A DNA stretch of 41,815 nucleotides from Candidatus Flemingiibacterium sp. Lineage in GTDB: Bacteria > Bacillota > Clostridia > Oscillospirales > CAG-272. This document shows positions 39,516-39,587 of the stretch, in pieces. The DNA is taken from assembly GCA_045634345.1 (NCBI GenBank), contig JAZRAB010000125.1, forward strand, positions 1 through 41,815, read 5' to 3'. Numbering within the stretch: the stretch's first letter is position 1; the number at the start of each line of letters is the position of its first letter. Under the pieces are notes generated by a model, which saw nothing but the letters and a program-made list of their open reading frames with translations, did not search any database and had not been told where the DNA came from. Made by a program: the position numbers and the translations under genes.

Positions 39516-39587
39516 GGAAGGGGGACTCTGTGGCAGAGCAGGTGTCGAAAGCACTTGAGTGGAGGTTCGAATCCTCCCCCTCCCACA
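39516..39587 (+). ncRNA. tRNA-like element (non-canonical; probable tRNA mimic or 3' module of a larger RNA)
   Basis: It has a D-arm CTCT-GTGGC-AGAG, an anticodon-like arm CAGGTG-TCGAAAG-CACTTG and a canonical T-arm GGAGG-TTCGAAT-CCTCC. The acceptor pairing is imperfect, position 33 is C, and the 3' end is ACA rather than CCA. Confidence 0.55.

What the first reader, a model, noticed from the sequence alone, without database searches (positions are those of the whole stretch)
39516..39587. Non-canonical tRNA-like element with anticodon-position GAA, about 95 nt upstream of the real tRNA-Phe(GAA)
The element has a 4-bp D-arm with GG in its loop, a 6-bp anticodon-like stem with the 7-nt loop TCGAAAG, and a textbook T-arm GGAGG-TTCGAAT-CCTCC. 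It departs from a functional tRNA in four ways:
- The acceptor stem is frayed, with only 5 of 7 pairs possible.
- Position 33 is C.
- There is no residue 26.
- The 3' end reads ACA.

It therefore keeps the tRNA elbow (D/T-loop interaction) but is unlikely to be aminoacylated. This is the pattern described for tRNA mimics such as the YrlA Y-RNA module. The GAA at the anticodon position, the same as the neighbouring tRNA-Phe, may be coincidence or may indicate mimicry or decay of tRNA-Phe.
Basis: partly seen in the sequence, partly recalled or inferred. Interest (0 to 1): 0.7.

Follow-up and report, generated by a model that had tools for sequence, protein, structure and literature searches.

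The report
tRNA-shaped RNA in Ro60-like array
The element is a real, conserved tRNA-shaped RNA that cannot decode. It is one module of a 1.4-kb array of small structured RNAs lying directly upstream of, and co-oriented with, the gene for a Ro60-like protein, an arrangement resembling bacterial Y RNAs but built differently and not found in Rfam or in the papers I could search.

Summary
Window 39516-39586 (+) folds as a cloverleaf with a textbook T-arm, and both ARAGORN and Rfam call it a tRNA (35.1 bits, against 73.5 for the neighbouring tRNA-Phe). Some details need correcting: the acceptor stem has 6 of 7 pairs, not 5, and the D stem has 3 pairs plus an A.C mismatch.

It belongs to a family found in 13 of 81 related loci. 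The acceptor and T helices covary, but the "anticodon" arm is a hairpin with a 3-7 nt loop. GAA occurs in only two members, as part of cGAAAg, so it is coincidence.

The context explains it:
- The 1.4-kb non-coding stretch 38467-39848 is an array of nine "framed" RNA units, AAGRYNNN-N-ACAGCAA...NNNRYCTT-GT.
- A tRNA-Phe and this element each sit 4-5 nt after a frame.
- A DUF2828/vWA gene follows. Its predicted structure (pLDDT 92) matches only Ro60 over its full length.
- WYL regulators lie upstream. RtcB lies downstream in the one close relative whose downstream genes were checked.
- Frames co-occur with DUF2828 and tRNA arrays in at least 66 phage contigs.

Best reading: a non-decoding tRNA-shaped module filling a tRNA slot, probably an RNase P/Z processing handle. 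Its role as a Y-RNA-like tRNA mimic remains open.

The parts
36148..37470 (+). WYL-domain protein, the putative regulator of the locus
   Evidence: Pfam WYL PF13280, E 1.6e-5, 25.2 bits, above the cutoff of 21.8
37467..38378 (+). Second regulator-like protein with a weak WCX-domain match
   Evidence: Pfam WCX PF25583, E 9.5e-4, 19.9 bits, below the cutoff of 23.9. The ORF overlaps the stop codon of the WYL gene.
38393..38418 (+). Terminator-like hairpin after the regulator genes
   Evidence: 11-bp stem followed by TTTTTTT
38428..38456 (+). Promoter-like site with a TG-extended -10 (GTGAAA-17-TAAAAT), about 10 nt before the first framed unit
   Evidence: The same block recurs at 41463-41491 and upstream of the array in L007.
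38467..38548 (+). Framed unit 1 (AAGGCGCA-G-ACAGCAA ... TGTGCCTT-GC). Its insert holds a Lys-type anticodon stem-loop look-alike, CUUUUAA, at 38494-38510.
38552..38655 (+). Framed unit 2 (AAGATACG ... CGTATCTT-GT)
   Evidence: The stem is fully compensatory relative to unit 1.
38849..38912 (+). Framed unit 3 (AAGGCACA-T-ACTGCAA ... TGTGCCTT-GT)
38985..39068 (+). Framed unit 4 (AAGACGCT ... TGCGTCTT-GT)
39069..39163 (+). Unframed conserved module between units, with its own closing helix
   Evidence: Near-identical segment in L002 2120-2214 and related segments in L009, L046, L070 and L076
39164..39224 (+). Framed unit 5 (GAGACACG ... GGTGTCTT-GT)
39250..39359 (+). Framed unit 6 (AAGATGCC ... 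GGCATCTT-GT). The insert is a second, divergent cloverleaf with T-loop-like UGAAAGG.
   Evidence: a class recurring in at least 15 loci
39435..39511 (+). Framed unit 7 (AAGGCGCA-A-ACAGCGA ... TGCGCCTT-GT), of the 'CUGAAUAG...CCUUAUCA' type. It ends 4 nt before the element.
   Evidence: z -3.5. In one search the same unit type precedes the element in 7 of 13 loci and tRNA-Phe in 3 of 11.
39516..39586 (+). THE FINDING: a non-decoding tRNA-shaped RNA. Acceptor 6 of 7 pairs, D stem 3 bp plus A.C, hairpin with nCGAAAg loop, canonical T-arm, A73, no CCA.
39593..39676 (+). Framed unit 8 (AAGGCAAGT-ACAGCAA ... ACTTGCCTT-GT). It starts 6 nt after the element and ends 5 nt before tRNA-Phe.
39682..39757 (+). 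Canonical tRNA-Phe(GAA) with encoded CCA
   Evidence: ARAGORN; Rfam 73.5 bits
39759..39848 (+). Framed unit 9 (AAGGCACC ... AGCGCCTT-GT, 6 of 8 pairs). It starts 1 nt after the CCA of tRNA-Phe.
39886..41343 (+). DUF2828 + DUF7788/vWA protein, a full-length structural homologue of Ro60
   Evidence: Pfam. AlphaFold2 pLDDT 92, pTM 0.91. The top 13 Foldseek PDB hits are all Ro60/TROVE. Phage homologues are annotated 'Ro-like RNA binding protein'.
41463..41491 (+). Second copy of the promoter-like block, after the DUF2828 gene

Best explanation
What it is. The element is a conserved, non-decoding tRNA-shaped RNA. It is one module of a polycistronic array of small structured RNAs transcribed towards the gene of a Ro60-like (DUF2828/vWA) protein, in a locus with WYL-type regulators and, in one close relative, RtcB.

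How the array is built. Most modules are 'framed': an 8-bp terminal helix (AAGRYNNN/NNNRYCUU) joins their 5' and 3' ends, followed by a conserved ACAGCAA strand and a GU tail. This plays the part that the Ro-binding stem plays in Y RNAs. The element is unframed. It fills a slot that is otherwise filled by a genuine tRNA: 4-5 nt after the end of one frame and a few nt before the next.

Inferred mechanism.
- What matters in that slot is tRNA shape, meaning the acceptor/T-arm minihelix.
- RNase P cutting at its 5' end would give the upstream framed RNA a defined short 3' tail.
- RNase Z cutting after A73 would free the next unit.
- A chromosomal array does not need the tRNA to decode, so the anticodon arm has drifted into an arbitrary hairpin.
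- The released roughly 70-nt tRNA-like RNA may in addition be handled by tRNA enzymes or by the Ro60-like protein.

Shown: the structure family, its position, its conservation and the protein fold. Inferred: transcription as one RNA, the RNase P/Z cuts, and binding of frames by the protein.
For: 1. Family. 13 of 81 loci score 55-87 bits. The acceptor, T and hairpin stems covary, and the hairpin loop is 3-7 nt and unconserved.

2. Slot.
- All 13 members are preceded by ...GCCTTG(T/C/A) plus a 4-5-nt AU spacer.
- ARAGORN census: 73 of 74 tRNA(-like) calls lie on the gene strand. 24 start 3-8 nt after a frame end (mode 4-5 nt), and in 17 of these the next frame starts within 1-7 nt.
- The same three upstream unit types precede either this element or tRNA-Phe.

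3. Frames are real helices. Without any pairing requirement there are 332 on the gene strand and 4 on the opposite strand. They covary: AAGGC/GCCTT 155, AAGAC/GTCTT 72, AAGAT/ATCTT 58, AAGGT/ACCTT 23. The variable NNN/NNN part is fully paired in 76% of units against 26% when partners are shuffled.

4. Independent data set. A frame-pattern scan of viral contigs gave at least 120 loci.
- 66 of them carry a DUF2828 homologue, and 70 of 70 frames in those loci are co-oriented with it.
- Of 200 frames, 61 are followed by a tRNA starting 1-10 nt later and only 9 by one at 13-50 nt. The tRNAs are of many identities. Shape, not identity, is what recurs.

5. The protein is Ro60-like over its full length. 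RtcB is adjacent in L002 and in Listeria phage P100.

6. A promoter-like site lies before the first unit and a terminator-like hairpin before that.
Against: - No expression or end-mapping data were available.
- 111 of 249 unit-to-unit junctions are shorter than 20 nt and have no tRNA. tRNA punctuation therefore cannot be the general way units are separated.
- One subgroup of the family (L008, L012, L046, L047, L050) has lost the canonical T-loop (A58) and the D-loop GG that the RNase P specificity domain normally reads.
- The sequence of the base of the hairpin (GCAAG.../...CTTGAG) is conserved, which a pure processing handle does not require.
- The thermodynamic fold of the window copy alone is only marginally better than shuffles (z -1.9) and slips register in the G/C-rich acceptor.
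Confidence: 0.5

Rival explanations
1. Y-RNA-type tRNA mimic. The released tRNA-shaped RNA is itself a cofactor of the Ro60-like protein or of RtcB. It would tether or gate the protein, or recruit tRNA-binding enzymes, as proposed for the tRNA-like domain of YrlA.
For: - The neighbouring protein is Ro60-like, on the same strand, and the element lies 300 nt upstream of its start.
- This meets the criterion Chen et al. used for Y RNAs: within 4 kb and on the same strand.
- About 69 framed units in relatives are tRNA mimics whose distal acceptor stem is replaced by the frame helix, so they have no free 3' end. tRNA mimicry is clearly a theme of these arrays.
- The base of the hairpin is conserved in sequence.
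Against: - The element has no frame or other shared protein-binding stem.
- Its topology is not YrlA-like.
- The motif GNCGAAN0-1G is present in only 2 of 13 members.
- The elbow nucleotides are lost in one subgroup.
- Real tRNAs of any identity occupy the same slot in phages.
Confidence: 0.28
2. Decoy or damage sensor. The array is a bank of tRNA and anticodon-loop look-alikes that absorb, or report, attack by tRNA-cleaving toxins. RtcB would reseal them, or the WYL regulators would sense the fragments.
For: - 51 of 62 CCA-less tRNA-like calls keep U33 and a purine at position 37 in a 7-nt loop. GAA, CAU and AAA are common at the anticodon position.
- Unit 1 of the window carries a CUUUUAA stem-loop.
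- RtcB and WYL proteins are linked to the locus.
- In Salmonella the analogous operon responds to damaged tRNAs (PMC7790460; title and abstract).
Against: - This particular family is the one class without a canonical anticodon loop, so it is the worst candidate for a decoy.
- No toxin is identified.
- The idea rests entirely on inference.
Confidence: 0.1
3. Decaying tRNA pseudogene with no function, left over from a tRNA array.
For: - It scores low on the general tRNA model (35.1 bits).
- The window copy has an A.C mismatch in the acceptor stem.
- T-loops have degenerated in one subgroup.
Against: - It is kept at the same position in 13 loci whose DUF2828 proteins are only 65-90% identical.
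- Helices are maintained by compensatory changes, for example GGAGGG/CCCTCC to GGGGGG/CCCCCC and GGAGG/CCTCC to GAAGG/CCTTC.
Confidence: 0.08
4. A functional, if unusual, decoding tRNA-Phe.
For: - ARAGORN and Rfam both call it a tRNA.
- It has GAA at the anticodon position and A73.
Against: - Position 33 is C.
- Depending on the parse, the loop is 5 or 7 nt.
- No CCA is encoded.
- 11 of 13 orthologues have no GAA and carry loops of 3-5 nt.
Confidence: 0.02

Closest known systems
YrlA / bacterial Y RNAs with Ro60 (Rsr), as in the Salmonella rsr-yrlBA-rtcBA operon
   Same: - Small non-coding RNAs encoded next to, and co-oriented with, a Ro60-fold protein.
- Several different RNAs per locus.
- tRNA-like domains with T- and D-arm features.
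- Linkage to the RtcB RNA ligase and to a dedicated regulator.
   Different: - The protein belongs to the DUF2828 family, not Pfam TROVE. Sequence profiles do not reach Ro60.
- The RNA is not circularly permuted, and its acceptor stem is open-ended.
- The conserved terminal helix of the array (AAGRYNNN/NNNRYCUU plus ACAGCAA) is unrelated to the GNCGAAN0-1G site, and this element does not carry it.
- There are up to nine or ten units per locus.
- The regulators are WYL-type rather than RtcR.
tRNA-shaped processing handles: mascRNA at the MALAT1 3' end, gammaherpesvirus-68 tRNA-miRNA (TMER) transcripts, mitochondrial tRNA punctuation, and the small stable RNAs inside the phage T4 tRNA cluster (all from my own knowledge; not read here)
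   Same: - A tRNA or non-aminoacylated tRNA-like fold abuts another non-coding RNA, so that RNase P or RNase Z cuts define that RNA's ends.
- The anticodon arm is dispensable.
   Different: - Those systems are eukaryotic, viral or organellar, or involve genuine tRNAs.
- Here cleavage is not demonstrated.
- Most junctions in this array have no tRNA at all.
tRNA-like RNA linked to SPFH/Band-7 modules, and Rot/TROVE-Y RNA pairs, in RNA-repair operons (Burroughs and Aravind, NAR 2016; recalled from memory, and the paper could not be opened)
   Same: - RtcB-centred operons with a scaffold protein and a cognate tRNA-like RNA.
- A mycobacteriophage homologue locus does carry a band-7-like gene, a tRNA and a 'Ro-like' DUF2828 gene together.
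   Different: - I could not check whether that work covers DUF2828 loci or the framed units.
- No Band-7 gene was found among the locus genes scanned here. These were the four ORFs between 35255 and 41343.
Ordinary tRNA genes and tRNA pseudogenes (Rfam RF00005)
   Same: - Cloverleaf with a canonical T-arm.
- Above the Rfam gathering score.
   Different: - No conserved anticodon loop.
- No CCA.
- It forms its own sequence family, which scores 20-50 bits above real tRNAs on a dedicated model.

Membership tests
Canonical decoding tRNA (RF00005) | Score at or above the Rfam gathering threshold, with an overall cloverleaf | tested here: met
   35.1 bits against a gathering score of 29. ARAGORN draws a cloverleaf.
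Canonical decoding tRNA (RF00005) | 5-bp anticodon stem with a 7-nt loop, U33, a purine at 37, and an anticodon conserved among orthologues | tested here: not met
   Position 33 is C. Orthologues have loops of 3-7 nt, and GAA occurs in only 2 of 13.
Canonical decoding tRNA (RF00005) | 7-bp acceptor stem plus a 3' CCA that is encoded or can be added | tested here: inconclusive
   6 of 7 pairs in the window and 7 of 7 in L002. A73 is followed by CAC. CCA is not encoded, and post-transcriptional addition cannot be tested here.
Canonical decoding tRNA (RF00005) | Elbow: G18 G19 in the D-loop and T54-Psi55-C56 ... A58 in the T-loop | tested here: inconclusive
   Present in the window copy (TGTGGCA; TTCGAAT) and in 8 of 13 members. 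Lost in L008, L012, L046, L047 and L050.
YrlA-type Y RNA | Encoded within about 4 kb of a Ro60 orthologue and on the same strand | tested here: inconclusive
   The element is on the same strand, 300 nt upstream of a protein with the Ro60 fold. That protein is DUF2828, not a Pfam TROVE orthologue.
YrlA-type Y RNA | 5' and 3' ends pair into a stem bearing the Ro-binding motif GNCGAAN0-1G | tested here: not met
   The ends form an ordinary acceptor stem. The string GTCGAAAG occurs, but in the hairpin loop and in only 2 of 13 members.
YrlA-type Y RNA | Circularly permuted tRNA-like domain: acceptor-like stem closed by a loop, and no free CCA end | tested here: not met
   The topology is that of a normal tRNA.
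YrlA-type Y RNA | Bound by Ro60, and modified by TruB/DusA | not testable with these tools
   Needs RIP-seq and modification mapping.
DUF2828-associated framed RNA units (the family defined here) | Terminal helix AAGRYNNN/NNNRYCTT with 5' ACAGCAA and a 3' GT | tested here: not met
   The element lies between frames 39435-39511 and 39593-39676 and has no frame of its own.
tRNA-shaped processing handle | Abuts the mature end of a neighbouring non-coding RNA at a fixed short distance and is interchangeable with real tRNAs | tested here: met
   4-5 nt after the frame end in 13 of 13 members. The same upstream unit types precede tRNA-Phe. The phage data set shows the same abutment.
tRNA-shaped processing handle | Cleaved by RNase P at +1 and by RNase Z after the discriminator base | not testable with these tools
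   No RNA-seq or enzymology was available.

The most novel reading that the evidence does not exclude
DUF2828 proteins are a second, phage-rich branch of the Ro60 fold with their own cognate RNA class: the framed units. The chromosomal arrays would be banks of tRNA and anticodon-loop mimics serving an RtcB-linked RNA-damage response as decoys, sensors or clients. The unframed tRNA-shaped element would be both a processing handle and one of these clients. A further possibility follows from the frame helix holding each unit's 5' and 3' ends together, which is the geometry RtcB needs to seal them into circles.
Probability: 0.2. Interest if true: 0.9.

Novelty: new variant of a known kind. Interest (0 to 1): 0.75.

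Why it matters
What bacterial Ro60 and its Y RNAs do, and why Y RNAs imitate tRNA, is still unsettled. This locus points to a parallel system:
- a protein with the Ro60 fold but no detectable sequence similarity to Ro60;
- 711 phage records with a homologue, often beside tRNA arrays and RtcB;
- a cognate RNA signature that is easy to recognise and strongly covarying.

The tRNA-shaped element shows that, in such arrays, tRNA shape is retained after decoding has been lost. That gives a clean experimental handle, because processing and mimicry predict different outcomes. It also gives annotators a reason not to call these elements tRNA-Phe genes.

Tried and rejected
- Sequence searches of the DUF2828 protein and of two profiles (48 and 126 sequences) against PDB chains found no Ro60. 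Only fold comparison did.
- The first AlphaFold model, from a shallow alignment (pLDDT 66), already ranked Ro60 first but with TM of about 0.28. It was redone with a diverse alignment.
- Rfam at permissive thresholds over 38300-41815 gave nothing but the two tRNAs and chance hits. The frames are therefore not a curated family.
- The microRNA and plastid-UTR hits on the minus strand are mirror images of the tRNA helices.
- Minus-strand transcription was considered, because the reverse strand folds better (z -4.9; A.C becomes G.U). It was rejected because 332 of 336 frames and 73 of 74 tRNA calls share the gene's strand.
- Integron attC-like or REP-like DNA repeats and tRNA att-site remnants were considered. 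They were rejected for these reasons: strictly one orientation, only next to DUF2828, no partial tRNA duplicates, and no integrase among the locus genes scanned.
- A pattern scan for the element itself in viral contigs found only two ordinary phage tRNAs.
- My first regular-expression searches for family members and for the upstream unit type were too noisy or too strict. They were replaced by the covariance model and by direct inspection.
- Literature searches for DUF2828, Ro-like, YrlA and WYL/RtcB found no description of these RNAs.
- Three relevant papers could not be opened.

Full report
**1. The observation**

ARAGORN calls two tRNAs in the window: 39516-39586 and 39682-39757. Both are labelled Phe(gaa). 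Rfam's tRNA model scores them 35.1 and 73.5 bits against a gathering score of 29.

ARAGORN's drawing of the first shows:
- acceptor stem GGAAGGG/CCCTCCC, with one A.C mismatch (6 of 7 pairs);
- a D stem of 3 pairs, with loop TGTGGCA;
- a 6-bp stem (one G.U) closing the loop TCGAAAG;
- T-arm GGAGG-TTCGAAT-CCTCC;
- A73, followed by CAC.

Infernal's alternative parse keeps residue 26 and leaves a 5-nt loop, CGAAA.

**2. It is a conserved family, and it does not decode**

I fetched 80 loci that encode relatives of the downstream protein. They come from Oscillospiraceae and other Clostridia, and the proteins are 64-90% identical.

A covariance model built from 8 orthologues finds 13 members in the 81 loci at 55-87 bits. 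Real tRNAs score 42 bits or less on it, and the neighbouring tRNA-Phe scores 35.5.

On the 13-member alignment, which was fitted to the model:
- 86.5% of cells are paired, against 51-62% for slid controls;
- ten pairs change on both sides;
- no shuffle out of 500 reaches the observed values.

Hand parsing shows compensatory changes in every helix:
- GGAGGG/CCCTCC becomes GGGGGG/CCCCCC, and CGCGG/CCGCG in L010;
- the T stem GGAGG/CCTCC becomes GAAGG/CCTTC, GCAGG/CCTGC and GTAGG/CCTAC.

The 'anticodon' arm is a hairpin, (C)AAGNN/NNCTT(G), with loops CAT, ATT, CTTG, TAGAT, TCAAAT or nCGAAAg. GAA appears only in the window and in its closest relative, L002. I therefore regard it as coincidence. 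Five members also lack a canonical T-loop and the GG of the D-loop.

**3. The surroundings**

No gene-like ORF lies between the stop codon at 38378 and the ATG at 39886. Reading the sequence shows nine units of the form AAGRYNNN-(N)-ACAGCAA-[insert of 18-155 nt]-NNNRYCTT-GT. The two ends of each unit pair with each other.

I searched all 81 loci for the two half-motifs with no pairing requirement:
- 332 units lie on the gene strand and 4 on the other strand.
- Partner combinations covary strongly: AAGGC/GCCTT 155, AAGAC/GTCTT 72, AAGAT/ATCTT 58, AAGGT/ACCTT 23. Mixed combinations total about 20.
- The three variable positions are fully paired in 76% of units, against 26% after shuffling partners.

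Nearly all units lie upstream of the protein gene. Rfam has no family for them.

A promoter-like site with an extended -10 lies about 10 nt before the first unit, and a terminator-like hairpin precedes it. The rest of the window is ordinary chromosome, with genes such as leuA, an ilvB-type TPP enzyme and aspartate kinase.

**4. The element sits in a tRNA slot**

In the window, the element starts 4 nt after frame 39435-39511 and ends 6 nt before frame 39593-39676. The real tRNA-Phe starts 5 nt after that second frame, and its CCA ends 1 nt before the last frame.

Across loci, excluding two phage-like tRNA arrays:
- 73 of 74 ARAGORN calls are on the gene strand.
- 35 lie inside a frame.
- 24 start 3-8 nt after a frame end, with modes at 4 and 5 nt.
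- Only about 10 have an encoded CCA.

All 13 family members follow ...GCCTTG(T/C/A) plus a 4-5-nt AU spacer. The same three upstream unit types precede either this element or tRNA-Phe.

Framed inserts are often tRNA mimics in which the frame helix replaces the distal acceptor stem (about 69 units). Most CCA-less calls keep a canonical-looking anticodon loop (51 of 62). The family studied here is the exception.

**5. The protein**

ORF 39886-41343 matches Pfam DUF2828 and DUF7788/vWA. Sequence and profile searches against the PDB do not reach Ro60.

With a diverse 126-sequence alignment, AlphaFold2 gives pLDDT 92 and pTM 0.91. Foldseek's top 13 PDB hits are all Ro60/TROVE structures aligned over their full length:
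- E-values run from 1e-8 to 2e-6 and TM-scores from 0.47 to 0.62.
- They cover Xenopus, human, Deinococcus Rsr and a Thermus phage.
- The next hits are isolated vWA domains at E of 2.6e-3 or worse.

Homologues occur in 711 phage records. They are annotated 'Ro-like RNA binding protein' or 'RNA-binding protein'. Examples:
- In Felix-O1-like phages the gene sits immediately before the tRNA array.
- In Listeria phage P100 it lies between tRNAs plus a ROOL RNA and RtcB.
- In L002, RtcB follows directly.

Upstream in the window lie a WYL protein and a weakly WCX-like protein.

**6. Independent confirmation of the RNA-protein link**

I scanned viral contigs for the pattern AAGGCNNNNACAGCAA-N35-65-GCCTTGT. 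The scan returned at least 120 loci.
- 66 carry a DUF2828 homologue (37-44% identity) within the fetched stretch.
- 70 of 70 frames in those loci are co-oriented with it, lying either upstream or just after the gene.
- 98 of the 120 loci hold tRNAs. Of 200 frames, 61 are followed by a tRNA 1-10 nt later and only 9 by one at 13-50 nt. The tRNAs have many different identities.

The frame-then-tRNA abutment is therefore a property of the system, not of this window.

**7. Interpretation**

Shown:
- The element is a conserved, non-decoding tRNA-shaped sequence.
- It occupies a tRNA slot inside an array of framed RNAs.
- Those framed RNAs are genomically coupled to a protein with the Ro60 fold.

Inferred, as the mechanism I consider most likely (confidence about 0.5): the slot needs tRNA shape so that RNase P and RNase Z trim the neighbouring framed RNAs. 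A chromosomal copy free of decoding constraints has let its anticodon arm drift.

Evidence against the handle model as the whole story:
- Many junctions have no tRNA.
- One subgroup has lost the elbow nucleotides.
- The base of the hairpin is conserved in sequence.

A Y-RNA-like role for the released RNA remains a serious rival (about 0.28). A decoy or sensor role fits the framed mimics better than it fits this element. Pseudogene and decoding-tRNA readings are disfavoured by the comparative data.

**8. Comparison with what is known**

The system works like Ro60/Y RNA in the rsr-yrlBA-rtcBA operon (PMC4201824; PMC7790460). The element nevertheless fails the defining features of YrlA: a permuted topology, a terminal stem bearing GNCGAAN0-1G, and a loop-closed acceptor. 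The protein is not a Pfam TROVE member.

I found no description of the frames or of DUF2828-linked RNAs in Rfam 15 or in the searchable literature. From memory, Burroughs and Aravind (2016) discuss Rot/TROVE-Y RNA pairs and a Band-7-linked tRNA-like RNA in RNA-repair operons. I could not open that paper, so partial prior coverage cannot be excluded.

I therefore rate the finding a new variant of a known kind, with high interest because of the array it exposes.

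Noticed in passing
window 41446-41815: The promoter-like block of 38410-38456 is repeated right after the DUF2828 gene (41446-41492). It is followed by at least 320 nt that do not look coding. That stretch contains a perfect T-arm-like hairpin, GCGGGTTCGAATCCCGC, at 41612-41628 (partial tmRNA hit, E 2.4e-4). This is probably a second non-coding RNA locus cut off by the window end.
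   Followed up: partly
L081 (Listeria phage P100, NC_007610) 1456-2007: A ROOL RNA match (RF03087, 86 bits, E 1.7e-16, just under the gathering score of 99.1) lies between tRNA-Pro and tRNA-Met, about 1 kb upstream of the phage's DUF2828 'RNA-binding protein'. RtcB lies 1.3 kb downstream of that gene. ROOL may therefore share this Ro60-like/RtcB neighbourhood.
   Followed up: no
window 38494-38510: Framed unit 1 contains a 5-bp stem with the loop CUUUUAA, a look-alike of the tRNA-Lys(UUU) anticodon stem-loop. L011 has a perfect version, CAAGA-CTTTTAA-TCTTG.
   Followed up: no
window 39250-39359: Framed unit 6 is a second cloverleaf-like RNA: three hairpins inside the frame, with a T-loop-like UGAAAGG. 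Neither ARAGORN nor Rfam calls it. The class recurs in at least 15 related loci.
   Followed up: partly
L012 about 2790-2870; L001-L009 about 45 nt upstream of the DUF2828 ATG: Most close relatives carry a framed tRNA-Phe-like mimic, AAGGCACC-AACAGCAA-[...CTGAAAA...]-GGTGCCTT, just before the gene. The window lacks it. L012 has a chimera of the 5' half of tRNA-Phe and the 3' half of that mimic, which suggests recombination between them.
   Followed up: partly
window 39508-39592, minus strand: The reverse complement of the element folds markedly better than shuffles (z -4.9, against -1.9 for the plus strand), because three A.C mismatches in an extended terminal stem become G.U. Strand statistics for the family argue for the plus strand, but antisense transcription was not excluded.
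   Followed up: partly
window 39516-39585 and family members: The acceptor and T helices are built from GGAGG(G)/(C)CCUCC, that is, Shine-Dalgarno-like and anti-Shine-Dalgarno-like strings. These are conserved across most of the family. Their significance is unknown.
   Followed up: no
viral loci L087-L206: Six tRNAs that directly follow a frame in phage contigs are called tRNA-Pyl (CUA anticodon) by ARAGORN. They are probably amber-suppressor tRNAs.
   Followed up: no
L083 (Mycobacterium phage Finnry) 1-3928: A band-7-like membrane protein gene, a tRNA-Tyr and the 'Ro-like RNA binding protein' (a DUF2828 homologue, 38% identity) lie in one co-oriented block.
   Followed up: no
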